A model generated the notes under the pieces. That model was given only the letters and a program-made list of their open reading frames with translations, had not been told where the DNA came from and did no database searches. From Octopus vulgaris (Eukaryota): 64,000 bases of DNA. This document shows, piece after piece, positions 5,122 to 63,539 of this stretch (positions within the stretch are counted from its first letter, which is position 1; each line of letters opens with the position of its first letter). The translations under genes were made by a program, and so were the position numbers. Location of the stretch: the NCBI GenBank assembly GCA_951406725.2, contig OX597814.1, positions 62,930,001 to 62,994,000 on the forward strand, given 5' to 3'.

Positions 5122-6399
5122 CGGGCGCTCAGCACATCGGAAATCAGAATTGAATGTAAATTTAAACTTCATAAAGCTTCACTGTAAGCTTCACTTTATA
5201 AAGCTTCAGTGAATCAAAAGAGCTGAAATAAACACAAACGTGATAAAGACCGAGTGTATGTCGTATAATAACGTAAGCACTTTCGTTCTGTACTATCGAT
5301 ATGCGGAAGGAAAAAGGTCGAGTATTTTGACACACTATTTCACAGTATTTTTATCGCTCCTCAGAGAAGACTTCAAGGTTCTTTTCAAATCAATAGCTCT
5401 ATCAGTTGCATATGAAATACTCAAAAATACGTTCATGGATACACAGCCATTGCACTCTGTCTGTTACGACAACGAGAGTTCCGGTTGACCCAATCAACGG
5501 AACAGCCTGCTCATGAAATTAACATGCAAGTGGCTGAACACTCCACATATACGTGTATTCGCGACGTAGTTCTCAGGAAGATTTAACACGACACAGAATA
5601 TAACAAGGTTGGCCCTTTGAAATTCAGGTACAACTAAGTTTTGCCAGCTGAGTGGACTGGAGTAATGAGAAATATTTTCTTGCTCAAGAACACAACGCGC
5701 CGCCGGGAATCGAACTCCAATCTTTAGAATCACCGTGAGTCGAATACTCTAACCTTTATGCCATGCACCACTGCACACACACGCACGCATACACGCATGC
5801 TCACACGCACACAGAAACAAACATATATACACGAACACGTCTACACACATAAAAACACATACACACGTTTATATATGTAACTTAAATTCTTCTGACCACC
5901 AAAAGTATATGGGAAGCTGTCAGCATTGGGCAAAATGCTTAGCAGTATTTCTTCCGGCTCTTTACGTTCTAAACTCAAAGACTGTCAGGATCGACCTTGT
6001 CTTCCATTTTCTTCGGATCGATAAAATAAAGTAAAAGTCAAGAACTGGTAGGTGGGGAGGATGTAATCGACATTCCCCTCCCCTCAAAACTAGTGACCTT
6101 TTGCCAACATTAGAAAGAATTATATTATTGGTATTGTTATTTTTTGTGACTTAGATGTATGTCGTTAGTGCTTTAATTCAGCGCAGTCACTTTCTTCATT
6201 CTCAGTTTATCTAGCATTAGAAATAAGATTTTCTGGCGAGTAAATGGAGAAAGGTCGACATGACTTATCTCACGTTGATGGCTACTGCCGATAACGGAAG
6301 TCAAGCATCTAACATTCCTTATCGTCTCTATATTTATCCTGTTGCTATATATATTTACAGAAAAGTCTACGATAACATCCTCCTAGTCGATGAATTCAT

Positions 6400-6800
6400 A
6401 GATGTGCTATTAAGAAGTATATTTGGCACCTATATGTTTTTCAATATACTTTACCCCCACTGCACGCAGTCTGAGACTGTAGAGCATGTCCTTGTTTTAC
6501 TCACTACGTGCATCCTGAAGAATTGAATCTAACCGACAGACTGCCTTGTTTGTGAAATTTGGTAGCCAGAGTAACTGTTTCTCTTCTTGGGTGCTAGACT
6601 TAATCCGTTAACCGGTTTACGTCTAGTAACTGGCATTTAGCTACCTTCAGCGGAACCTGCATTTTTGCAAGGTCAGATCCTCAGACTGTAGACTGTGTCC
6701 CTGGTTTTGTCACCAGTCTCAGAGATCTTGAAAAGGGTCATTTGCCTTGTCCTTGCTACTTTCGCTAAGTTGTTGGTAACGACTGTAAGAACCTGATTTA
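6400..6800 (+). mobile_element. Decayed L1/Tx1-like LINE 3' fragment
   Basis: HCTQSETVEHVL zinc-knuckle remnant in ORF 6260..6526. Confidence 0.35.
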
Positions 6801-7199
6801 AATATTGTAAAATTGTAAGGAGAAATGACCATGATTTAAACTTTATGTACCTTGGTTCTCTTCAGAGTAATACAACCTAAATTTTAATTGTAGTGAAATA
6901 CGGTGTATTATAAAAGAAATAAAAGTGACGTAATACGGAAACGAAAAGACATTGGCCCGAATATTTATTCCTTGCTAATTAATTAAGTTGAGTTATATTG
7001 GTTTATATTGATTATACATAATGTCCAGTTGCTTTTCTGGTATTTGTTGTTGATGTTGTTTTGTTTAACCCCAGACTAACCCTCAGTGTCAATAGTTTTA
7101 CAGCTATCATCAACTCGTTTTTGTTTTCAGGCATCACATATTTAATATCGTTGTTTTAGGTTTCATCTTTTTTAGAACGGTGAAGAGACAGGAAGCCTC

Positions 7200-7530
7200 A
7201 GTAGTTGATTTACGCTAAATATATTCCAGCTTTGCTGTTGCTATATATCTCCGGTCTGGTTAACGAAGATCGAGCAAATCTGGGATGAACGATATATGAT
7301 CAAATGCGTTCCAATAGTGCCTGTATATCAGAAACAACATTGCCAAAACGTTCGTTCTTTCTAAGGTGCCTGAGAAAAGATTGGCTGCTGTATCTAGGAG
7401 GTCGACGCACACCTCTTCTGCTTCCATATACCGGGATTTGTTCAAGAAACTGACCTTATATATCGGGACGTGTTCAAGATACTCCAAACGAAATGAAGTT
7501 TTCAGATTTTCTTTAATGATCAACTGAGTT
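7200..7530 (-). mobile_element. Decayed LINE reverse-transcriptase fragment
   Basis: ORF 7260..7523 contains VPIYKVSFLNKS (YRPISLL-like) and YWNAFD (motif A-like). Confidence 0.45.
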
Positions 7531-7781
7531 ACAGGATGTTTGAATATGCTACGAGAATTGTCTTTTTTATACCCTTCATTTGATCATAGATCATAGATCT
7601 ACTTGTTTAAATGTTTAACTTCATCGTTTCACAGTGTGAAGTGTCATATTCTCTGCTGTTTAGTTTTCGCTAACTTCCAGTGTACAAATTAAATCCTAAA
7701 ATTATAGTTGAATAAATTCTTGTCACCTACTGCTCAAATTGTATTGATCTTAATGAATCTCTCTCTTCCTCTCTTCCCCAC

Positions 7782-7836
<55 letters not shown>

Positions 7837-7904
7837 CTCTCTCTCTTTCGCTCTTTTTTACCCTTTCTCTCAATTCATTTGCCTTTTTACTGTATTTAAA
7901 TTAA

Positions 7905-7937
7905 TTGTGCTTCTTTTTTCAATTTTGCAGGTAAGCA
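7905..7937 (+). promoter_or_regulatory. Candidate recursive splice site (3' acceptor directly abutting a 5' donor)
   Basis: TTCTTTTTTCAATTTTGCAG|GTAAGC; AG ends at 7930. Confidence 0.45.
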
Positions 7938-8341
7938 TATTTTAAGCACCAATCACGGACAATTTCATTTTCGTCGTTGCTGATTTGATGCTGGATATAG
8001 GTATGGCAGTTTCATATTTAAGGTTTTTATCATGTTGAAAAGTTTAATACGTAGTAATGAGTCTCTGAGAGCGAGCGTGAGAGTGAATGAGTAAGTGAGA
8101 GAGAAAATATTTGGAAGATGTATATAATTAAGAGACAAAATCTCTATTAAGTAATTCAATTAATAGTGAAAGATATTATCTATAATAAATCATATAGAAA
8201 GAATTTGAATATATTATAATAAATATTATTCTAAAAAATCACTAAATTAAATAAACATTAAATTGACTACGCACGTTTCGTGACTATATATTTATATCGA
8301 TAATATTAAAAGTTAATATTAATTCGATTATATATATATAT

Positions 8342-8656
8342 ATACTAATAAAAAGGGCTCAGCAAAGAATTACCTCACCACACACCGAAGTTCAGAAATA
8401 GCAGCCAAAAATCTTAGCCATTTCTTCTACTTTAAAAAGGGTCTTCCAGAGAAACCAAAATACTTTAAAAAGACCCTTTTTAAAGTAGAAGAAATGGCTG
8501 CTATTTCTGAACTTCGGTGTGTGGTGAGGCAATTCTTTGCTGAACCCTTTTTATTAGTATTACTAAAAATTTACCGTGTAACGGTCCTGTTTTCATACCG
8601 ACTTCTACTTGGAGAAATTTATTGATTACTTTTTAATTAATTAATTTTACCCTTTG

Positions 8657-8659
<3 letters not shown>
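8342..8659 (+). mobile_element. Asymmetric foldback element in (TA)n (PLE-like inverted terminus), structured-tail family copy A
   Basis: Arms 8342-8445 and 8470-8560 are reverse complements, followed by a ~100-nt tail with no counterpart in the left arm. Homologous to 29962-30458. Confidence 0.75.
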
Positions 8660-8704
<45 letters not shown>

Positions 8705-9182
8705 ATATACTGTATGTGTGAAGGATATCTTGAAGGATGTATTGAAATGTAAGTTAAGATACGTAAATCATATATTTTGTTATTAAGTATACAGTTTAGC
8801 ACGGTTGTGAGTACTAAACAAAAATATTATGCCACAGATTTTCTATCGTTCCTGGGGCAGAAAAGAGGAAACAGTTTGATAAATTAGTATCTTTTTTCAT
8901 CTTCCCTAACGACAGGATACTCCACAAGAGATTATTAGCTTATATCTATATACAATTCATACAAATTCAGGCAGAGCTAAACTGGTTTATCTGATTTGCA
9001 TACAATGCTTGCGGTGACAAGTTAATAGTCTTTCTGCTATGCAAAGTAGACAGACTGGTTAGATCTGTCTGAGTTTGCATACACTATAAATATATTGTAA
9101 ATTAACATTTTCGTGAACAGAAGAGAGAAATCATTCTACTGATCAAAATCTAACATGACGCTAAAATCTGTGGTGACTTTAC

Positions 9183-9328
9183 GTGGCTGTGTGGTAAGAA
9201 GCTTGCTTCTCAACCACATGATTCCGGGTTCTGTCCCGGTGTCTTGGGCAAGTGTCTTCTACTATAGCCTCGGGCCGACCAAATCCTTGTGAATAGATTT
9301 CGTAGACAGAAACTGAAAGAAGCCCGTC

Positions 9329-9330
<2 letters not shown>
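9183..9330 (+). mobile_element. Abundant SINE with internal microsatellite (other copies at about 16390-16600, 19530-19910, 33750-34135, 41150-41340, 56640-57050)
   Basis: Recurrent GCTGTGTGGTAAGAAGCTTGCTT...GGCAAGTGTCTTCTACTATAGCC...GAAACTGAAAGAAGCCCGTCGTA, and GGTGCTCCAGCATGGCC segments in the other copies. Confidence 0.75.
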
Positions 9331-9354
<24 letters not shown>

Positions 9355-9363
<9 letters not shown>

Positions 9364-9950
9364 CAGGTATAAGCCTGAGCTTGTAATCTGGATAGGGTAA
9401 CTGCAGATTTTTCAGTAGTTCAGCATAGGTATTCTCTTTTTCATTGAACAACCGCCGGGAAGCTTATTTCCACAACTGCGCACAGTTTCTCTTCTCTATC
9501 CCAAATCATTATATAAGGTCTGTTGTACTTAGATTTTATTGAGGTCTTCACTGGGACATTCCACCAGAACTCCTTTTTATTATGAGTGGCTATGGCTTCT
9601 ACCATACTGTGGGTTCTTATTTCTTTGTCCTTGGGGTTATCCTTCCAACAGATTTCATTATAGAGTGTCCTAGCCACATTATCATCTCCCATCGGTAGAT
9701 AATACCGTGATGACATTTTCGGACAATTCCTTATGATGTGGGTGATATTTTCATTGTTAACTCCACAAAGTCTGCATTGGTTGTCATATTTTACTGTTTT
9801 TTTTCTGCATATCTATCCCATTTGTGCATCAGATATTTGGTTGATATTTTCTGTTCAATAATATACCCATGCATAATCTTTTGCTCATATAGGTTCACTC
9901 TTTCATCTGATGACACGTTGCAGTAGAGTCGTGCGACTCCTTTGGACATG
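9355..9950 (-). mobile_element. R4/Dong-like REL retrotransposon 3' fragment, decayed
   Basis: CRLCG...HII.NC knuckle, WWNVPVKT, RPYIMIWD (PD-type nuclease) and YAELLKNL; frameshifted. Confidence 0.75.
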
Positions 9951-9982
9951 TATTCTAGGTTATCAGACAAGGAATGTTGCTC

Positions 9983-10013
<31 letters not shown>

Positions 10014-10993
10014 TGTATGTATGTATGTATGTATGTATGTATGTATGTATGTATGTATAAAACTCAAGTAAACAACATGCAGAAAGATATACGCATCCAT
10101 AAACAGGATGTGTATAGTAAGAAAAATTTTTACCGTTATAAATAGACACATCCGCGATCCCAAATTGCAACACTCAAGCTCTACACTATACACAAATCAG
10201 AAAATACATGATGGGGTCAACAACAAACAATCTGACCTTTCATACATATAGTACTCCGTTCACTTGTTGATTGAAAAAGGTTTCAAAGGGTTGTTAACTT
10301 TCAAGTTGATGTTTATTTTTACTGCATTGAATGCATTTATTATTTACATGGATACAGTGTCATAAAATAAACGATTACGTGTTCAAAAAAGAAATGTACG
10401 ATTGTTGTATAGATTACTATAACCTACACTTTGTGAAAATAAAATGTTTTCATCAATACAGCAACATATTATATCAGTAATATAGCATAATGGTAGAACC
10501 TGATAATATAGAAAATAATTGGATTTTTTTTTCATGATCTTGAAAGAAAATTATTTTAAAAAATAAGCTATAAAAATATCTCAAAGCTTTTCATGATTAA
10601 ATAGCTTCATTAACATAAAGAAAGATTTTCAAAAAGATAGCTAAAAAATTTAAATTTAAGTGTATTTCGGAAAAACAAAACTAAAATAATTACCTAATCA
10701 AAACAACAAAAATAATTTTTAATAAAAATGTATCAATAAAAATTTACGCATGCAGCAGGGCCAGTTATCCAACGTAGTTTTTGAAACGTAAAAGTGAAGG
10801 CTACGAAAGTACATTATTTGTCAGTTAGTTTTAAAGGTTAATGAAAATATATATGTTAAAAAATTACCACTTGAGCGTTGATAAAAACCTCAATGTAAAA
10901 AAAAAATTCTAAAGAAATAACTGTCTATTAATTATTCTATATACCATGGTTAAATATGTTATTTCTCCATTCGCCTGATGCTTCAAATAACAC

Positions 10994-11228
10994 TTAACAC
11001 TTCGCTTGTCCTGTGTATCATGTATTATACACAAAATATATTTCCTGGTGCCCATGCATCATATATAATTCGCATTCCTAATTTTTTCAACCACGAGAAT
11101 ATCTTGGCACTTATGAAAGGAACGTTTTATATTACTGAGGACGTTTGAAACAAGCTCTAAGAGTCTGAATACAAGCATAGACGCGTGAGACACACTTATG
11201 AAAATGCTTTTGACATTCAAAGGGTTAA
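10994..11228. mobile_element. TTAA-flanked piggyBac-like MITE (related decayed copy ending near 21782)
   Basis: TTAACACTTCGCTTGTC ... GACATTCAAAGGGTTAA form imperfect TIRs with TTAA on both ends. Confidence 0.5.
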
Positions 11229-13119
11229 ACGAGGAAAATAATTAATTTTGTTTATCCAGATAAAGTCTTTAGAAATATTTCTAAATGTTAAATTTATTAT
11301 TTGATAATCGAAGGGTCATTGCCTAGTGGTATGGTAACAGTGTTGCACTCACGATTCGCGAAATCGTGGTTTCAATTCCTGGACAGGGTTGTGCGTTGTG
11401 TTCGTGAGCAAAGCACTTCGTCTTATGTTGCTTTCGACACCTGACGTGTGGTACACCATGAACCTGTTCAGGCAAGGTGAATTTGATGGAGAGAGTGTGT
11501 TAATGTACAGCACAAACATTTGATTACTATAAACAAATCCTTTGTGCAGGTCGTTCAGCAAGAAATTGCAGAACCGTCTTTGTTGGACTACACTTTCACA
11601 CTTTAATTTGAAGGACGGTGTAAAATATGTAATGTCAATATCAACAATGTCTTTAAAAGTTGGAATAAAATATCATTTACATATTTTGTACAATAACTGT
11701 CATGACGCAAATGCTTTACAAAAGATTTTCAGTTGAAATATTGAGTTGCATTGTTTGAACTATTCGTAATTTTACGGTAAAAATTTATTTCAAAATTTTT
11801 AACATGTTTTAAAATTGGGAAAAACGATTTGCGTCATTAGCATATAACATTTTATTAGAATTTGAAGTACAGGTTTTAGGTCATATGGGATAAAAATAAG
11901 ATTTGACATAATAAACTATCTTACAGCACTCCGGAAGCAATTAAACATTTATGCGAAAATAGATAAATTGAGATCTATTCAACTAATATTGCCGTAAATT
12001 CACAAATTTACGTATCACACTATAGTAATTATTTGTTTTTGAAATCTGTTACAAACATAAAACACTACAAAATCTGCTAATTTATTATTAATTTGTGTTA
12101 GTCACTTAAACGCATCAAAAATAAACTAGCTTTTCGCTAAGAATACAAACTTTCAATTGAATATAATGTTATTTGTGTCTAGAAATATGCTAATAGGGTT
12201 ATAATTATGGATTCGATAAATTTAGTTGGCCTACCGAGTAAATTAATTAATAGGTCGACAGACTGCGACCCATTTTGTGTAAATGGTTTTCGAAATTTTC
12301 CAGCTCAATGGGAATTGTTTCTATTTGAACACATTTTGACTGTAGTTAGGGAGCTTTACCTTAAAAATTTTTAAAGGAAAAACTGTGAGATACCATCCAG
12401 ATCTGACAATGCTTCAATTTGTAAAGGTAGTCAAAACTGAGTTGGATGCAAGATTTATATAAATTGTTTTATTACTAACAGAATTGCTATTAAACTCTTT
12501 TACATCATCTAAATTGAAAACAGATTAAAGAAATTAAAAACTTTTATCAAAATCTTCAAGCATTAAGTGATTATCATGAAATACTTGCATAGCAATATGT
12601 TTACAACTTAACCTAGATTTAATATATTTAGAGAATTTCGGAATTTAGAATATGTATTTCATGATTAAAATTATCACGACGTTTCAATTTTCAAAATACC
12701 AAAATAACCGTTGTCGAAACTTTGCAGTACGAAATTTTCTTACGAATTTTGTGCAAATTTTCTGTCCTTTTATGGAATTTTCATGCGGCGAGTGACCAAA
12801 ATTGCGATACATAGAACAAAACTATTATAAGGGACCCGATTCTGTCATACAATCATTTATTTGCTCCGCTCTTTTAACTACTACTAAGACTAGCAAAACC
12901 TTCGGCTCTGTTGTCTTACTATGCTGACACTGCGTCGGTTGATCCGATCCGTGGAACAACCTGCTCGTGAAATTAGCGTGCAAGTGGCTGAACACTCTAC
13001 AGACACACGTACTCTTAACATAGTTTTCAGGGAGATTTAGCTTAGTACAGAGTGTGACAAGGCTGGCCTTTTGAAAAACAGGTACTACTCATTTTTGCCA
13101 TCGGAGTGGGCCGTCGACT

Positions 13120-13890
13120 ATACACTCATACAAAATATTCAGCACCACCTTAAGAAGCCGCGTAAACTGCTTGACAAGCTTATCATTTGGTGTGCAAAGA
13201 TAACACATCCAAGGCATGCAGTATCACAAGACTCAGCAAACTCACCTAGGTTTTTTCACCAGTCCTTTTCACCCCGCGCACAAATAAGGCGTTCCCACAC
13301 CATTACACAAAATATGTACAGTATCCAATGCAAAAGACATCACGTCCCAATTCTTACACTATTCTTCACTCTCTGTTGAATAAGCACTGTAACACTACTT
13401 AAATTACATTAAAACCTGGTTCCAGAGCAACATGCTTAAAGTAGCACCTAGTAAGTGTACTGCTTTTTTTTATATAGGAACTCATATACAACTATCACAC
13501 TCAACAGCAAAAACATTCCCCTCAGATCGAAATAAAATATTGGCAAATACACACGAACTCACCAAAATATTCACATCATGCACTGAAGATTTAATAAAGA
13601 AATACTTGGAGAAAGCAGAAAGAATTTAACAATGATGTACAAACAAATAAACCATATTAAACTTAACTGGGCACTCAAATCACGTCACAATAAACTACGA
13701 ACACAGAGCATTGCAAGACGCTGGTTGTACACAGCCAACAGCCGCAGACCAGCATCTAGACGAAATAAAAATACTCAAGCTGCAAGACCAACAAAACTTG
13801 TAAAATACTGAATTCATTGCAACAGAGATACACAGGCAACAATGACAACACTCATCCCAAACAAAAATAAATACAGAAACACACACATAT
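13120..13890 (+). mobile_element. Decayed LINE RT C-terminal half
   Basis: AVSQDSANSP (GVPQGSVLSP-like), a YADD-like remnant, and a GCTQ...QHLDEIKILKLQD thumb-like segment. Confidence 0.55.
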
Positions 13891-14354
13891 TTCCAATATC
13901 ATTTGCCTCGCTCGACCCCAAATACATTGCAGGGATACATCCTATCAAAAATACTTATGGATAAGCAGCAACTGTCATGCTCCGACGGAATTCCCTTTAT
14001 TTGTGTCTACTGTTATATCGCCAGTATTTACAGACATATAGATATAGATTGTATATTAGAGAGAGTGCAATATGTCCAAATAATCACACTGCATTCCATT
14101 AGATTCATCATTGCATATTGTAATGTGCAGCAAGTTCATTCAAGCAGACGGAGATTTTGTATAACGGGGAAATTGGATATATGGGTCATTTGGCTGATTG
14201 TCTTATAGGACTTCTCGATCGGCGCTGATCTGGGGCTGCACTTCAACAACCATAATAATATAACTGCTATGCTATAAGCACCAGCACAAACGGCAGCTCA
14301 AACATCAACATCAGCACCTGCGCTACCAGTATCAGCAGCATCACCACCACTACC

Positions 14355-14670
14355 ACTTGTCTGTTCAATCATTGTATGTCCACTCATCTATTCATTCGCT
14401 GTCATTCGTTGCCTGTTCATACGTTGTCTTCTTACTGGTCTGTGTGTTTACTCGTGTACCAGTTCGCACGTCTGCTTAGTCTTGTATGTTCATTCGTTTA
14501 GCTAGTTGCCTGTTCATTTGTTGCTTGCTCATATATTAAATCCTCATTGTCTGTTTACTCGTTCCTCGTTTCATCATTGCCTTTGCTTTCCTTAAATGTT
14601 CACCCATTGCCTATACATTTGTATGTCGATCGCTCGTCTCTTGTTTGTCAACTCGCTGTCAGTATGCTTG
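14355..14670. repeat. Degenerate ~15-bp minisatellite (consensus about TTGCCTGTTCATTCG)
   Basis: Repeated TTGYCTGTTCAYTCG-like units. Confidence 0.6.
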
Positions 14671-15086
14671 TCATATAAAACTTTCGACAGATTTAAAAGA
14701 ATATTATTTAATTTTCTGATATTTTGTTTCGTATTTGCTAAACAACAACAGCGCTGTTTGTAAGATGTTTAGTTAGCAAGTAATTCAAATTTTATTTGCA
14801 TTACATTTTTGATTTGTAAAGGTACATGCGACAGGAAACCAAAGATTAATGCAAATAAAATCTGCATTACTTTCTGACTCTTCCTCGGAGAGAACCAGCA
14901 ATCCAATTACTGGCTCACTGCATTTCTGGTAGTGATAGCAACAATGGTGGGTTTGAATGACTATAGTTGGATGTAGACAGGTTATCACAAAAATTACACC
15001 CAGAAATCATCAGTTAGCGGGTTTCTCGTTAAGATTTACAACTTTGTCCGTCATATGCCAGCAAAGAATGCATGCCATTATATATA

Positions 15087-16346
15087 CAAGGGTTAGACAA
15101 GATGATGGAAACACATTAAAATTTCAAACATATTTAATTTAATATGGGGTAGGACCGCCTTTGGCAGTTATTACAGCTTGAATTCTATGGGGTATGGAAT
15201 CGTATAAAGCTTGAATTGTTTCCAAAGGAAGTTTTATCCATTCTTCAGCTAAAACAGTCTCCAGTTCTTGTAGTGATGGCGGTGGAGGATATCGACTCCT
15301 TACTTGTTTTTCGAAAATGCATCATAAATATTCAATAATATTGAGATCTGGGGCCTGTGATAACCAGATACGATCTTCAACTTCACTAGAATGTTCCTCA
15401 TGCCATTCAGTAACAACTTTAGCTGTGTGAATTGGTGAATTATCATCCTGAAAGATTGCGTTTCCCTCCGGAAACATTTCCGCAACCATAGGATGAATTT
15501 CGTCAGATAAAGTGCTTAAATAGTCTTGACTATTAATTCTGCTATGAAGGGAAACCATTGGGCAGGCGGATTTCCAAGATACAGACCCCCAGATCATCAA
15601 ATATCCTCCTCCATGTTTAACAGTTGGGTCAAATGCTTCTTATGGCTGTCTCCAGACATATACTCGGCCGGTGGTCGGAAATTAGGTAAAGATAACTCGC
15701 CCGAGAGTCATTCTTCCACTGCTCTAGAGACCAATTCTGTAGGTTTTTACTCCACTCTAAACGCTTTGCAACGTTTCTTTTTGAACTTAGTGGTTTTCTG
15801 ATTGCTGCCCTCCCGTGAAATCCGGCATTGTGCAGCTCCCGGCGAACAGTTTTTGTGGAAACTGGGTTCTCGAGGTGGTCATTAAGCTCTGCCGTAGTTT
15901 TGGGAGCTGTATGTTTGTGATCCTTTCTAACAATTCACGTAAGAGTCCGACGGTCCCTATCTGAAAGTTTTGGTTTTCTTCAGGAGTTTTGTTTCGACAA
16001 GGAATTTTTTTCCCTGTTTCTCAAAGGCTGTCATTATTTTCCAGACAGTACGTCTTGATACAGCAAACGTTTCGGCTGTTTTCGTTACGCTAGCGCCTGC
16101 CATATGACTACGAACAATTTGACAATTTGATCTCTTTGGAAGTCCGTTAGATCTGTCATTTTAATGAATTTTAATTACCTTTTTCTGGTGATATCTGAAA
16201 AGAAACAGCAATTTTAGCAAAGCGTATTAAGCAACACTTATAATGAATAAAAAAAAACATAAAAATAAAGCTTTTGACGGTTATATAGCTATTTCAAAAT
16301 TATGATGCTTTGATGCCAGGTGTTTCCATTATTTTGACCAATCCCT

Positions 16347-16348
<2 letters not shown>
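15087..16348 (-). mobile_element. Tc1-family transposon (DD34E), full length but decayed
   Basis: ~28-bp TIRs CAAGGGTTAGACAAGATGATGGAAACAC / GTGTTTCCATTATTTTGACCAATCCCTTG with TA TSD; motifs MIWG, IFQDDNSPIH and APDLNIIE. Confidence 0.9.
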
Positions 16349-16392
<44 letters not shown>

Positions 16393-16669
16393 CTTTTTAT
16401 CTCAGTCTTTGGCATAGGCAATGCTGATGCTCTGTCTTGAAGAGTTTTAGTTGAACGAAACGACCTCGATACTTATTAATTTTAGCCTGGTACTTATTCT
16501 ATGCCGAAACCAGTAATTTGTGGAGATCTAAGAGATGTAGACGAACCAACACAATTTACCAAGAGGTGGTGGAGGACAAACATAAAAAAGACACACACAC
16601 ACACACACACATACACACACATACACACACACACACACACACACATATTTATATATATATATATATTAA

Positions 16670-17535
16670 GTACATAATTATAAAAATATAATTATAATTA
16701 AGGGCGCTGGAATGCCAGTGCCTATACACTAGAAGGAAATGTCAAATACCTACCATCCACTCTAAATTTATTCTCTATTATGACCCAAGGTTGAATGCGA
16801 GGTAACGAGCAAGAAGATTTACAAAATTTCGGATAATCCTATATCTTAAGATTTCATGCTATGTAATAAAGATAACTTTACACTCCTCAATAGAGATATA
16901 CCGACAATATACAGGCGAAAAGTACATATACATACTGATAACTTTTTGCGTACAGATACCAATATACATTATTTACATTATTTACATTTTACGGGTACTT
17001 GTTCTCATCTTGTTTGTTGTTAATACAACGTTTCGGCTGATATACCCTCCTGCCTTCATCAGGTGCCATGGGGAAATACCTTACAAATAAGAACCCAGGT
17101 TCGACATTTCCCCAAGACACCTGATGCAGGCTGGAAGTTATATCAGCCGAAAGTTTGCGTTAACAACAAACAAGATGAGGGCAAATATCCGTCAAATGTA
17201 AATAATGTAAATAAGGTTCCATAATTCCTCATCTCTTAAATATAGAACTGTAGATACCAATATATCCATCATTTCCCGAAATTTTGTAAATCTTCTTGCT
17301 CATTACTTCGCATTTGACCTTGGGTTATAAAGAGAGAAAATATTTAGAGTGGATTATAGGTATTTGACATCTACTTCTAGCGTATAGGCGCTGGCATTCT
17401 CGCGCCCTTAATTATAATTATATTTTTCATACTTATATACCATATCGGTAAAAATTAATTTTACCGATATGGTTGTTTTTATACGCTAGCCACTGATACA
17501 ATCATTTTAATGATTATACCCTCAATTTCTTAGTA
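16670..17535 (+). mobile_element. Asymmetric foldback element (structured-tail family copy C) interrupted by a second foldback
   Basis: Arms 16670-16832 and 17277-17430 are reverse complements; tail runs to about 17535; (TA)n flanks. Confidence 0.7.
16967..17251. mobile_element. PLE-like inverted-repeat element with a hammerhead motif in each arm and a 13-bp TSD
   Basis: AGATACCAATATA is duplicated at 16954-16966 and 17252-17264. The minus strand of 17021-17066 reads CAC-CTGATGA-AGGC...GCC-GAAACGTT. Confidence 0.8.
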
Positions 17536-28644: not shown

Positions 28645-28873
28645 ACGTAATCACGTAAATGCTAAAATTGTGTAAAGCAGGTAGTACTCGAATACCGAAG
28701 ATAGAACAATATGTTTTTTTTAAGCTCAAAAAATCTCCACAACCTGTTACTCAGAGTCTCACTTTATCGTTCGTCGGACAGTTCTGATCAAGTCTATGAT
28801 CACACTGTACGACAAGCAGTAACGTGAAACTCTGAGTAACAGTTAGTGAAGATTTTTTTCAGCTTTAATAAAA

Positions 28874-29019: not shown

Positions 29020-29350
29020 ACTTCAAGAAAGCAGAGGTTGTGAATCCAACCCACTAAGGGATAATATCTATCCAATATACTGCTGGTAGATTACCCAATT
29101 ATTAATACACAGGTGTTTTTTCTATTGTATTGCAATTATATTACCTAGTGTACTAAATGGGTGAAGGTAAAGAGATATTTTACCATTAATTTATATGGCA
29201 AATAAGAAAATGGAGGAGAACAATAGGTGGTTCATAAACTTTTAGACATAAATTAATATCAGTTTAGTAAATACATAAATAAATAAGTTAATAATTTAAT
29301 GTCTAAAAGTTGATGAACCACCTATTGTTCTCCTCCATTTTCTTATTTGC

Positions 29351-29352
<2 letters not shown>
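29018..29352 (-). mobile_element. Asymmetric foldback element in (TA)n, distinct family
   Basis: Arms at about 29197-29250 and 29298-29351 are reverse complements; ~180-nt tail on the left. Confidence 0.7.
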
Positions 29353-29416
<64 letters not shown>

Positions 29417-29964: not shown

Positions 29965-30454
29965 TAAGTAATTAAGGGTTTAGCAACGAATTGCCTCACC
30001 AACACACCGAATTTAGAAATAGCAGTCAAAGAGATATAGCTATTCCTTCTACTAAAAGGGGGATCTCAGTAAAACACAGCACTTGAAAGGCAAACACAGA
30101 CAGGTAAGAAAGAAAGAATGAAATGACGGCAATCTATCATACAATTTTAAGTTATGATGGACACATGATAGATTGTATGATAGATTGCCGTCATTTCATT
30201 CTTTCTTTCTTACCTGTCTGTGTTTGCCTTTCAAGTGCTGTGTTTTTACTGAGATCCCCCTTTTAGTAGAAGGAATAGCTATATCTCTTTGACTGCTATT
30301 TCTAAATTCGGTGTGTTGGTGAGGCAATTCGTTGCTAAACCCTTAATTACTTAGTATTACTTAAATTTTCCTCGAATGGGGCTTTTACATGCCGAAATCT
30401 ACTTGGTGTAATTGATAATTATTCCAAATTAATTAATTTCACCCTTTATTATTA

Positions 30455-59671: not shown

Positions 59672-60268
59672 GATGCCCTGATGCAGTACTAGGCAGTAGC
59701 TGTCATGGCTTTTAATCTGAACTGATTGGAAGTGTTGTCATGTACATTGTTTTGTCTTGGTATAAAAGATGGGTTACAGCAAATATTCTGCTCAATACCA
59801 CAGATTTGCCTGTCAGTTGTTTGACCGTAATCAGTTGAACATGTCCCTTAGTGGCTGACGATATGTGCATCTCTGACCACGAGCAGAAGTAGTGGGGGAG
59901 CATCATAGCCATGATTTGAAAGGAATTCTTTGGAGTTTGGATAATTCATCTTTGGAAACATGGGTGTTTCGTTCATCATCCTTAAATAATCTTTATTCAG
60001 GGACCTTTTGAGCGGGATGGGCTACTCGACCAGAAGAAAATTGTAATAGTGGGTTAGATGGGCGCTAGAGAAGGGGAAGCAGCCCCCGAAATATGGCATA
60101 TACACTCTTATCCACTTTTGTCTTCGATCACATTGCCTGTTTGCATCTGATGTCTCGATACGAAACGTTGTTGCAAAAATCAGGGCTGGCTATAAGTTCT
60201 ATAGAATATCTGTAGAAATAACTTTATACACACACGCGCGCGCTTGCACACACACACATTTATATAAA

Positions 60269-60610
60269 CAATTGCAGCGTGGAAGGTGTTTATAAGCCAT
60301 TAAAAACACACAAAAACCGTTAGATTCCTTTCAACATTTAAATTTGATTTGTCAAAATATTTTCGTCGCTTTGAAACTGCGACCTGTTCACTGACAAAAT
60401 TTCGTGCTGCAGGAAATTTTGTCATTGAACAGGTCGCAGTTTCAAAGCGACGAAAATATTTTGACAAATCAAATTTAAATGTTGAAAGGAATCTAACGGT
60501 TTTTGTGTGTTTTTAAATGGCTTGTAAATACCTTCCACGCTACAATTGCTTTTGTTTCAGCACACGATCTCAGATCAGGTCACTTGCTATGCAAGTTCAT
60601 CTTCTTAATG
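60269..60610 (+). mobile_element. Asymmetric foldback element with a G3-C8 variant hammerhead in its arms
   Basis: ~135-bp arms (60269-60403 and 60413-60548) plus a ~60-nt tail into (TA)n. Confidence 0.85.
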
Positions 60611-60930
60611 TATATATATATACGAGGGACCCTAGACCATTCAGCATCTGCCGTACGACTGGCGCGAATGATTTGTTTGTAGCGACCAAATGTTCATGCC
60701 GCATATTGATTCCATCAAATCGAGGCTGTCTGAACAGGTACACTATGCACCATGCATCAAGTGTCGAAGTGATCGCAGAGCAACGTGAAATGATATGTTT
60801 TGCTCAAGAACACAACACAGCAACCGACCCTAACCATGCACGCTCACACACACACACAAAGATATACATATATGTATATGTATGCAGGCATCCATCCATA
60901 CCTACGTCCATTCATTCATACACACATATA

Positions 60931-62562
60931 CAGTTGCGGCCAAAATGTTCAGAACGGCATTGTTTTCGACAGAAAAGTAGGTATAAGTTTTTATCAAAGT
61001 TGTTTTATATTCTATAATTTTCACAGACAATAAATACGATATTAATTGTTATTGTCTGAGATTTCGGTGTAATTTGAAAGGATAATACAAAAGTTATGGA
61101 TGATTTAGTGATTTACTGCAAAACCCATGGTGGCCAAAAGAATCAGAACGGTTGCTTTTACTCCGTGTTTTAGTATATTTAACCGGCGAACTCTAATGTT
61201 TTGAATTTGTTTACGTGATGGTTTGTTTACTAAACATTAGTAAGAATATCTGCAGTGTACTTTGTTAATATAATGCTACTTACTCCGTTACCAATTCTTC
61301 AGCAGATTATTAAGCTTCGAAAGAAGGATAATTTAAGTATTGGGTCTATTGCAAAGATTGTTAACAAGTCAAAAAGTGTTGTTCACGGTATTCTTAAGGT
61401 CTTCGATGATTGTGGTTCGTGTGAAGCAAGAAAGTCTACAGGTAGGCCAAGAAAAACGACCAAGAGAGAAGATCGTGCTATGGTAAAGTTGGTTAAAAAG
61501 GACAGATTTAAAACTGCTGCTGCTGTTTCTCGGGAAATGAGCATTGTACTGAAGAAAACGTTATCTCGAAAAACTGTGTTATCTCATCGTTTAGTTGAAC
61601 ATAACCTACAAGCAAGATCACCTGCAGTGAAGCCACTGATCAGCTCCAAAAATAAAAAGTGTCGTCTTACCTTTGCAACCGAACATGTGCTGTAGTCTCA
61701 AGAAAAATGGCAAACGGTGCATTTCAGTGATGAATCTAAGTTTATGTTATTTGGCTCAGATGGGAAAAGGTACGTTCGTTGAAAAGTAGGTGAAAAATTG
61801 TCGCCTAAATGCCTTAAGACTAGTGTTAAATTCGGTGGAGGAAGTGTCATGGTTTGGGGAATGATATCTAGAGATGGTGTGGACTCTTTGGTGCGATTAC
61901 ACGGAAAGGTAAATGCAGGAGTTTATAAACAACTTGTAAAAGATCATGTCTTGCCTGTGCTGAGAAATTCAACTAAGCGACCACCTATATTCATGCAGGA
62001 CAATGCCCCATGTCACAAGGCTAAGGTGGTCATGAACTTCCTCAAGGCTGAAAAGGTTATTATTATGGATTGGCCTGCTCAAAGCCCAGATCTCAATCCT
62101 ATTGAAAATGTGTGGAATATTCTAGGAGAACGTTCGAAAGCCAGAAATCCTAAAACAACCGAGCAATTACGGAATGCCCTTCAGGAAGAATGGAATAAGA
62201 TCATTTAGCAAGAAATTGAAAATTTAATTTCCTCATGCAGTCGAAGATGTCAAAGTGTGATTGAAGCTAAAGGGCTTCACACTAAATATTAAATAATTCC
62301 AGAATTCTCTGTCATTTTTTATTATTTTGTTATTTTTTCAACCGTTCTGATCATTTTGGCCGCCATGGGTTTTGCAGTAAATCACTAAATCATCCATAAC
62401 TTTTGTATTATTCCCTCAAATTGCACCAAAATCTCAGACAATAACAATTAATATCGTATTTATTGTCTGTGAAAAGTATAGAACATAAAACAACTGTGAT
62501 AAAAACTTATATCTACTTTTCTGGCGAAAACAATGCCGTTCTGAACATTTTGGCCGCAACTG
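60931..62562 (+). mobile_element. Tc1-family IR/DR-type transposon (DD34E), full length with nonsense mutations
   Basis: ~220-bp TIRs starting CAGTTGCGGCCAAAATGTTCAGAACGG with TA TSD; GRPRK, FSDESKF, FMQDNAPCH and SPDLNPIENVW motifs; stops near 61693 and 61780. Confidence 0.95.
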
Positions 62563-62571
62563 TATATATGC

Positions 62572-63539
62572 CTTACTGGCTGGTCCTTCTTCGCTGTATA
62601 CGATGGTCATGCTCGAGCTAAGGTATCGGCCTGCTGTGCAGCTCAGCTGATGGAGCATATTGCCAATAAAAATTTTCGGGGCAAGCTTGACGTCAGCTAG
62701 GGTACGGAAATCCTTTCTATTATGGATGTTCAGAAAGGCATCAAGAGTGGCTTTCTTAAGTTTCATGACTGCATGCGAACAATGCCAGAAGTGGGTCGTG
62801 GGGAAGACAAAAGTGGCTCTACAGCAGTATGTGCCATTTTCTCACCAACACACATTTTCTGTGCTAATTGTGGAGATTCTCAGGCGGTGCTGTGTCGACG
62901 TGGTAAATGTCCCTTCTCAACTACCGATCACAAACCTGTAAATCCCATTCAGAAGGAACGTATACAGCATGCTGGAGGCGATGTTATGATACAGCGAGTC
63001 AATGGATCTTTAGCAGTATCCCGGGCTCTAGGAGACTTTGAATATAAAAAAATGTTGAAGGAAAAGCGCCATGAAAGCAGTTAGTATCTCCAGAGCCAGA
63101 AATTTTCACCGAATGTCGAAATGAGGATGAATTCTTAGTACTTGCTTGTGATGGAATTTAGGATGTCATGTCCAATGAAGAACTCTGTGATTTTGTTAGG
63201 AGTAGAATGCACATTACTGAAAGTCTTGAAGACATTTGCAATCAAGTTGTAGATAGATGTCTATATACGGGAAGTCGAGATAACACGGGCATTGTCCTCA
63301 TAGCTTTTCCAGGAGCACCTAAGCTATTAGATGAGGAAAGAGGACTGAACACACGTTTGGAGAACAAAATTAAAGAAATCCTAGACAACTGCAAATCTGA
63401 AGGTGATGTCGACCTTTCTCTTGTGATGAATGAGTTGATAGATGATAAAATAGAAGGATTACCACCAGGTGGTGGTTTAAGTTCTAAGAGAATGACAGTT
63501 GGAAGTATTTTGAAGCGACTCAGACCGGGAAAAATTTAG
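62572..63539 (+). pseudogene. PPM1B: Processed pseudogene of a PPM1A/PPM1B-type protein phosphatase 2C
   Basis: Intronless [50 protein letters not shown] and GSRDN, plus the PP2C C-terminal LPPGGGL motif. Stops at 62698 and 63159, a frameshift in the A-run near 63050, and no N-terminus. Confidence 0.92.

What the first reader, a model, noticed from the sequence alone, without database searches (positions are those of the whole stretch)
17348..17522. Five-helix structured motif, copy C: different sequence, same fold
Seen: P1 AGTGG (17348) / CCACT (17490); P2 TAGGT/ATCTA; P3 CTAGCGTATA (17377) / TATACGCTAG (17480), a perfect 10 bp; P4 GGCGC..GCGCC followed by CTT; an AT-rich linker; P5 a 14-bp hairpin (17440-17472); terminal ACCCT at 17518. 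It has little primary similarity to copies A and B, yet the same topology and the same position relative to the inversion breakpoint. This is the strongest sign that structure rather than sequence is conserved.
Basis: partly seen in the sequence, partly recalled or inferred. Interest (0 to 1): 0.75.

Follow-up and report, generated by a model that had tools for sequence, protein, structure and literature searches.

The report
Shared RNA fold marking retrozyme ends
This stretch is the tail end of a decayed copy of a ribozyme-carrying jumping repeat, and at least eight such repeat families in this animal genome, diverged in sequence, share one predicted RNA fold beside their two fixed insertion ends, likely the handle by which a Penelope-type copying enzyme grips them and picks where to start.

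Summary
The helices are at the stated coordinates. Copy C is the 3' end of an old, high-copy, protein-free repeat of about 520 bp with a type I hammerhead: an animal retrozyme with Penelope-type insertions into (TA)n. The 14-bp P5 is private to this copy (1 of 43 rows). A sixth helix, P6, was missed. The fold is fixed to the element's ends, not to the inversion breakpoint. The proposed test fails as written: an A/B model gives C E 0.49. A model widened by its own hits, without C, finds C at E 3e-4 and new families J and K. Families share 56-67% identity with C or with each other outside the A/B/E group, and P3 pairs change in a matched way, though families were partly chosen for pairing. Insertion ends lie just 3' of P4 and of P6, each followed by CU(U/C). 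In 79 of 91 inverted insertions one arm uses each end. Likely role: template recognition and two start sites for a Penelope-type RT. No autonomous partner was found. The scan had noted such retrozymes and two start points on other DNA; my look-ups showed no note of the shared fold.

The parts
17348..17494 (+). P1-P5 core of the shared fold: P1 closes a junction of P2 and P3; P3 encloses P4, an A/U-rich linker holding the inner insertion end, and P5
17495..17520 (+).
17521..17533 (+). CUC plus A/U-rich run up to the outer insertion end; (TA)n follows from 17534
17407..17440 (+). CUU plus linker after P4; family C has an extra A/U hairpin here and its inner ends lie 32-38 nt after P4
17440..17472 (+). 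14-bp hairpin private to this copy (local inverted duplication); the family P5 is only its 3' part, about 17463-17473
17276..17533 (+). right (direct) arm of the family-C insertion, 5'-truncated
16666..16966 (-). left (inverted) arm of the same insertion, ending at the inner (post-P4) site next to a TA run
17252..17278 (-). rest of the left arm beyond the nested element; 17276-17278 is the 3-nt microhomology at the head-to-head junction
16838..16895 (-). decayed type I hammerhead of family C (first core C changed to T in this copy; core intact in the family consensus)
16967..17252 (.). separate nested palindromic element with two hammerhead cores (17030-62 minus, 17121-53 plus, the latter altered), flanked by a 12-nt duplication at 16955 and 17253; not family C
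8480..8662 (+). copy A of the fold (family A retrozyme; inverted arm 8342-8434)
30261..30454 (+). copy B of the fold (young family B retrozyme; inverted arm from 29961)

Best explanation
The finding is the 3' end of a decayed copy of a non-coding, hammerhead-bearing tandem repeat (an animal retrozyme), and its predicted six-helix RNA fold, shared by at least eight diverged families here, likely serves as the site that a Penelope-like reverse transcriptase binds and as the guide to its two start points. Shown: tandem monomers of about 480-600 bp, a type I hammerhead upstream of the fold, (TA)n targets, 5' truncation, head-to-head inversions, and two fixed ends just 3' of P4 and of P6, each helix followed by CU(U/C) and an A/U-rich run. 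Inferred: arrays are transcribed and cut by the hammerhead into monomers or circles; the enzyme of an autonomous element binds the fold; its GIY-YIG nuclease cuts both strands of (TA)n; each DNA end primes cDNA at one of the two A/U-rich sites, about 13-22 nt past a helix; the two cDNAs join at their truncated 5' ends by microhomology, giving the asymmetric inverted insertions. Selection acts only on the templates that get copied, so covariation shows between families and not among dead copies such as this one.
For: Repeat anatomy. Same topology in unconstrained MFE of the consensus of A, B, C, D, F, G and J and of one K copy; P3, P4 and P6 have probability of at least 0.95 in all seven of A-G. 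Family-matched P3 pairing ranks 1 of 5040 permutations (7 families) and 1 of 120 with A/B/E collapsed, 1 of 362880 with 9; 2-5 pair types at each P3 position. R2 finds C, G, F and the unseen J and K. J, found blind, then showed the expected hammerhead, TA targets and both ends. Modal ends after P4: A +14 (13 of 16 TA-flanked ends), B +16 (5 of 10), D +13 (10 of 14), F +14 (6 of 11), G +22 (5 of 5), C +32-38 (9 of 10). 79 of 91 inverted insertions pair a P4 end with a P6 end; 5 are P6/P6, 7 have an odd end. The sense strand folds better than the antisense in 7 of 9 sequences. A Penelope-like RT cuts both strands of AT-rich DNA and starts at two internal RNA sites downstream of the hammerhead (PMC11167929).
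Against: No autonomous element carrying the fold was found among Neptune-type and Hydra-type loci, nor by eye in published octopus Naiad 3' ends. The A/B model alone misses C. No covariation within C. The swap test is partly circular: A-C, F and G were picked for their pairing, J and K by a model that scores pairs. P1, P2 and P5 are weak in some families (P1 0.03 in E, 0.53 in G; P5 0.09 in F, 0.38 in G), and the single H and I copies did not fold P1. C and D fold as well on the antisense strand. An energy-only descriptor separates poorly from shuffles (12 vs 3.5 hits in 600 kb; 2 of the 12 are members). In C, 55 of 78 alignment ends were not TA-flanked and scatter. P4/P4 pairs could hardly be seen because the queries required P6. 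The tail is 90-120 nt, not the published 30-40.
Confidence: 0.6

Rival explanations
1. The fold is selected, but for the life of the RNA rather than for the enzyme: it would protect the cut monomer or circle from decay, help ligation, or bind a host protein, with the two ends set only by the nearby A/U-rich runs.
For: Whole retrozyme RNAs are predicted to be highly self-paired (PMC7229834 passages; C monomer fold). Hydra-like elements here also have two ends about 115 nt apart without this fold.
Against: General stability does not need the same junction, the CU(U/C) after both P4 and P6, or ends at a near-constant distance from those helices.
Confidence: 0.2
2. The helices are a mutational by-product: template switching during copying would keep rewriting one strand from its partner, so that matched pairs persist with no function.
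For: This copy's 14-bp hairpin arose that way; P6 and the C linker hairpin are near-perfect local palindromes; C and D fold equally on both strands.
Against: P1 and P3 span 100-145 nt, keep G-U pairs and sit in the same register in all families; the sense strand is favoured in 7 of 9; dead copies drift away from pairing (11% of cells unpaired).
Confidence: 0.1
3. The fold is a second catalytic RNA (cleaving or ligating), or a structure that acts in the cDNA strand.
For: Multi-helix junction with conserved unpaired bases (TTTGAC near P2 in several families; CU(U/C) after P4 and P6); no Rfam family explains it.
Against: Each family examined upstream already has a hammerhead; insertion ends, not truncation points, map to the fold; the sense strand is favoured.
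Confidence: 0.07

Closest known systems
Animal non-LTR retrozymes (Cervera and de la Pena 2020, PMC7229834: passages and Discussion read; Li, Clavereau and Pollet 2026, bioRxiv 10.64898/2026.07.22.740005: parts 1-3 of 5 read, supplements closed)
   Same: Protein-free tandem monomers, type I hammerhead per unit, low GC, proposed mobilisation by Penelope-like elements.
   Different: In the text I read neither paper describes a fold other than the hammerhead conserved between families, two fixed ends, or paired inverted arms; the 2026 paper says the mechanism remains to be elucidated.
Penelope-like element PAc of Anolis (Frangieh et al. 2024, PMC11167929: parts 1-2 of 4 read, supplements not read)
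   Same: Internal initiation at two RNA sites downstream of a hammerhead, both target strands cut and extended, AT-rich targets, a tail between the two sites, predicted dimer.
   Different: There the sites lie in the ORF at an AC-rich stem-loop and the tail is 30-40 nt; here they follow two helices of a non-coding six-helix fold, 90-120 nt apart, with pair changes across families.
Hydra, Naiad and Neptune clades of PLEs (Craig et al. 2021, PMC8557442: passages and supplement parts 1, 24, 25, 52 read)
   Same: (TA)n preference listed for cephalopod Naiad and Hydra families; tandem and inverted insertions. Hydra-like elements in G000 have a hammerhead and two ends about 115 nt apart, the outer one after a long hairpin plus CUU and an A/U-rich run.
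   Different: None of the autonomous ends examined carries the P1-P5 core. Clade names are by resemblance to the published alignment; no tree was built.
Telomerase RNA template with boundary helix (recalled, not from a call)
   Same: A helix 5' of a single-stranded stretch on which a telomerase-related RT works.
   Different: The RT here would read through the helix; no repeat addition is seen at the ends; no pseudoknot was tested.

Membership tests
Animal non-LTR retrozyme | Head-to-tail monomers of a few hundred bp | tested here: met
   C about 500-525 bp, B 588, A about 580-600, D about 495, F about 480, J about 547
Animal non-LTR retrozyme | Type I hammerhead in the unit | tested here: met
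   Cores and stems read from sequence in A, B (CCGAUGA variant), C, D, F, G, J. Rfam did not flag them in the window or in 4 loci. The window copy's core is mutated. E and K were not seen far enough upstream to tell.
Animal non-LTR retrozyme | No protein-coding frame | tested here: met
   No ORF of 100 aa or more at 16666-17533; monomers are about 0.5 kb
Animal non-LTR retrozyme | Two consecutive units with complete hammerheads (the 'active' criterion of Li et al.) | tested here: not met
   Not met by the window copy (one decayed hammerhead); met in sequence by B arrays with a variant core
Animal non-LTR retrozyme | Self-cleavage and circular RNA in cells | not testable with these tools
   Needs bench work or raw RNA reads
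Penelope-type insertion | 5' truncation, inverted 5'-truncated arm, microsatellite target | tested here: met
Penelope-type insertion | Tail between two alternative 3' ends (30-40 nt in print) | tested here: inconclusive
   Two ends are clear but lie 90-120 nt apart
Penelope-type insertion | 3' end shared with the pseudo-LTR of an autonomous RT + GIY-YIG element | tested here: inconclusive
   Not found. R1 on 30 GIY-YIG loci; R2 on 19 of those plus 20 longer stretches and on 80 of 110 Hydra-like loci; BLAST and descriptor on the rest. Only the top 150 of 6136-16659 candidates were scored per search, and a hammerhead core was reached in only 9 of 60 loci.
Any Rfam 15 family | Match to a covariance model | tested here: not met
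   No match over 17348-17522 at E up to 1; nothing near a gathering score on B and C monomers in 4 loci
Telomerase RNA | Templated addition of telomeric repeats | tested here: not met
   Ends run into (TA)n
Telomerase RNA | Template-pseudoknot domain | not tested
   Only nested folds were computed

The most novel reading that the evidence does not exclude
The six-helix fold is a dedicated RNA scaffold for a dimeric Penelope-like RT. It holds two equivalent modules (helix, CU(U/C), A/U-rich run) so that each subunit primes one of the two cut DNA ends at its own site. This would explain the Penelope tail and the asymmetric inverted insertions, and would be a telomerase-RNA-like partner for the RT class closest to telomerase.
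Probability: 0.3. Interest if true: 0.8.

Novelty: new variant of a known kind. Interest (0 to 1): 0.55.

Why it matters
How animal retrozymes recruit a reverse transcriptase, and what RNA feature sets the two start sites of Penelope-like elements, are open in the papers read (PMC7229834, PMC11167929, bioRxiv 2026.07.22.740005). Here eight or more natural families supply a candidate element with ready-made compensatory variants and mapped ends, so both questions become directly testable. A portable RNA handle for an RT that inserts into (TA)n would also be of use as a tool. The particular copy in the finding is dead and of little interest in itself.

Tried and rejected
Rfam: nothing relevant. 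A/B-only model: misses C. Within-family covariation: null in C; in A+B the score beat all 500 shuffles but rests on one family split. MAFFT cross-family alignments were out of register for D, F and G and were not used for models. A third, wider model was not built. The energy-only descriptor was weak. With A/U-linker and TA-run filters it gave 83 hits in 1.31 Mb, 81 rows like A-F and 2 rows of new family G, and 0 hits in 3 shuffles of 600 kb against 2 real; it was written after seeing C, and shuffling weakens the TA filter. Autonomous partner: not found; the PLE piece beside the B array at L055 is separated by a TA run and is a separate insertion. Published Naiad_Obim and Naiad_Ovul 3' ends show no such fold by eye only. 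RNA: no RNA holder listed for the B monomer; contigs of 4 of the 24 listed runs were laid and cannot show ends or strand. A likeness of the post-P4 letters in A/B to a telomerase template (recalled) was dropped: it is not kept across families. Literature searches that showed no description of this fold: (listings; five papers read in part). Repbase and Dfam were not searchable, so the families may be catalogued there; the supplements of PMC11167929 (RNA fold figure, not read) and of the 2026 preprint (closed) may bear on novelty.

Full report
Setting. The window is G000:C1:62930001-62994000 in a 2.8-Gb, microsatellite-rich animal genome. That it is octopus-like is my guess from repeat content, and earlier scan notes say cephalopod; I did not test it.

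Observation. Copies A and B are at 8480-8662 and 30261-30454. Rfam has no match over the finding.

What copy C is. A DNA search gave 562 candidates, 40 scored, the other copies 81-87% identical. The motif is the fixed end of the repeat: it runs into (TA)n, while the other side is variably truncated and often inverted. Tandem junctions give a monomer of about 520 bp whose consensus holds a type I hammerhead about 80 nt upstream of P1. In the window the insertion is an inverted left arm (16666-16966 and 17252-17278) joined head to head, through 3 nt of microhomology, to a right arm (17276-17533). A separate hammerhead palindrome sits inside the left arm with a 12-nt duplication, and C's own hammerhead (16838-16895, minus strand) is mutated. 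A (1642 candidates) and B (1676 candidates, 40 of 40 scored copies identical over 191 nt) are tandem hammerhead repeats of the same build. This is the anatomy of animal non-LTR retrozymes (PMC7229834, passages and Discussion; bioRxiv 10.64898/2026.07.22.740005, parts 1-3 of 5) with Penelope-type insertions (PMC8557442, passages).

The 14-bp P5 is in 1 of 43 aligned rows (40 distinct places): it is a local inverted duplication in this copy, and the family P5 is 3-4 bp. ACCCT is in 2 of 43 rows. P1 and P2 are poorly supported in this copy (0.16, 0.10) and well in the consensus (0.82, 0.82). A long hairpin, P6, follows P1'. The fold is tied to the ends, not to the breakpoint.

Among 31 C copies covariation is at shuffle level (108 of 500). 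Model R1, from 11 A and 3 B copies, gives the window copy E 0.49 and no C copy under E 0.1 in 26 loci, but it finds a new family D at E 6.5e-4. R2 was built from the 16 matches of R1 in 15 loci that I chose; they include partial arms and a duplicate, and no C, F or G row. R2 finds the window copy full length on the plus strand at 28.5 bits, E 2.9e-4, with the next unrelated hit at E 0.5; 14 of 25 C loci, 2 of 2 G and 2 of 3 F at E<0.05. A sequence-only HMM from the same alignment gives E 0.071 for the window copy, 4 of 25 C, 2 of 2 G and 0 of 3 F. The CM E-values are rough, but structure adds signal and some primary homology remains.

More families. D (2407 candidates), F (2091), G (2179) and J (2535) are high-copy, hammerhead-bearing and TA-targeted; E, H, I and K are known from one to a few loci. 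E came from R1, F and G from a descriptor script, J and K blind from R2 (K at E 0.07-0.17 only). Unconstrained folds of the consensus of A, B, C, D, F, G and J, and of one K copy, give the same P1-P6 topology; E lacks P1 in its MFE and the single H and I copies do not form P1. P3, P4 and P6 have probability of at least 0.95 in all of A-G; P1, P2 and P5 vary. Identities outside the A/B/E group are 56-67%. Pairing the 10 nt before P4 with the 24 nt before P6 is best when families are matched: rank 1 of 5040, 1 of 120 with A/B/E collapsed, 1 of 362880 with nine families; P1 ranks 51 of 5040. This is partly circular, since most families were picked by a method that scores pairs. D, G and C are the least affected, being reachable by sequence alone (D 4 of 20 loci from the A/B HMM, G 18 of 20 from the wider HMM; C 4 of 25).

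Where the ends fall. Both P4 and P6 are followed by CU(U/C) and an A/U-rich run, and both runs hold an insertion end. Modal TA-flanked ends after P4 are +14 (A, 13 of 16), +16 (B, 5 of 10), +13 (D, 10 of 14), +14 (F, 6 of 11), +22 (G, 5 of 5) and +32-38 (C, 9 of 10; C has an extra 24-nt hairpin in this linker). After P6 they fall mostly at +12 to +22 (+7 in 7 of 12 C ends). BLAST ends are blurred by chance matches to TA, and in old family C 55 of 78 ends were not TA-flanked. J shows the same two ends by eye. Of 91 head-to-head insertions in seven families, 79 pair a P4 end with a P6 end, 5 are P6/P6 and 7 have an odd end; P4/P4 could hardly be sampled. Earlier scan notes on other DNA of this genome had reported such retrozymes with two fixed start points and twin priming; look-ups by words and by this sequence returned nothing on a shared fold.

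Mechanism. The only Penelope-like protein studied in vitro cuts and extends both strands of AT-rich DNA, needs an RNA region downstream of the hammerhead, starts at two internal sites and is predicted to be a dimer (PMC11167929, parts 1-2 of 4). The simplest reading is that this fold is the matching RNA element: it is bound by the RT, offers two helix-CU(U/C)-A/U modules as start sites, one for each cut DNA end, and the two cDNAs meet at their truncated ends. Anatomy, ends and pair changes are shown; transcription, cleavage, binding and priming are inferred. I put this at 0.6, an RNA-stability or host-protein role at 0.2, a mutational by-product at 0.1, and a second ribozyme or cDNA structure at 0.07.

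The missing partner. The genome holds intact RT + GIY-YIG elements: a 781-codon Neptune-like family among 6136 candidates and Hydra-like families with frames up to 1091 codons among 16659 candidates. None of the ends examined carries the core; motif hits in those loci are neighbouring retrozyme insertions. One Hydra-like group has two ends at +33-46 and +149-161 from its hammerhead cut, the outer one after a long hairpin plus CUU and an A/U-rich run like the P6 module. That makes Hydra-type enzymes my first candidate, on resemblance only. Sampling covered only the top hits, and many loci stopped short of the element's end.

Verdict. The copy is an ordinary dead retrozyme insertion, and its most striking hairpin is an accident. 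The underlying claim survives in a better form: a six-helix fold kept across eight or more retrozyme families and placed exactly at their two insertion ends. Seven literature searches and five papers read in part showed no description of it; Repbase, Dfam and two sets of supplements were not seen. New variant of a known kind; interest 0.55.

Noticed in passing
window 16967-17252: Nested palindromic element with two facing hammerhead cores and a 12-nt target duplication; a different family, which R2 did not match.
   Followed up: partly
L312-L361, L409, L416-L420 (G000, GIY-YIG seed L244:3996-4343): Very abundant Hydra-like PLEs with open frames up to 1091 codons, a hammerhead in a long 3' region and two ends about 115 nt apart; their tail looks conserved and structured across subfamilies.
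   Followed up: partly
L246:1845-4187 and many copies: Young Neptune-like PLE family with an intact 781-codon frame, ending in TA about 70-100 nt after a degenerate hammerhead-like core.
   Followed up: partly
L171:189-2474 (just right of the window): Decayed, nearly full-length PLE reading frame.
   Followed up: no
window 60923-63539: Tc1-like transposase pieces between 232-nt inverted repeats (60923-62570), next to two nearby PP2C phosphatase frames (62722-63539) that may be a processed copy.
   Followed up: no
window 28714-28873, 29189-29361, 14771-14879, 60266-60551: Further short palindromes; the first two end in TA runs and may be truncated PLE-type insertions of other families.
   Followed up: no
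L043 (family B), L055-L057: Family B carries a CCGAUGA hammerhead core variant; one B array of about 570-bp period lies beside an unrelated decayed PLE piece in the same TA tract.
   Followed up: partly
L153:135-307 (minus), L354:3184-3386, L202:1030-1206: Further R2 matches that may be more subfamilies of the fold.
   Followed up: no
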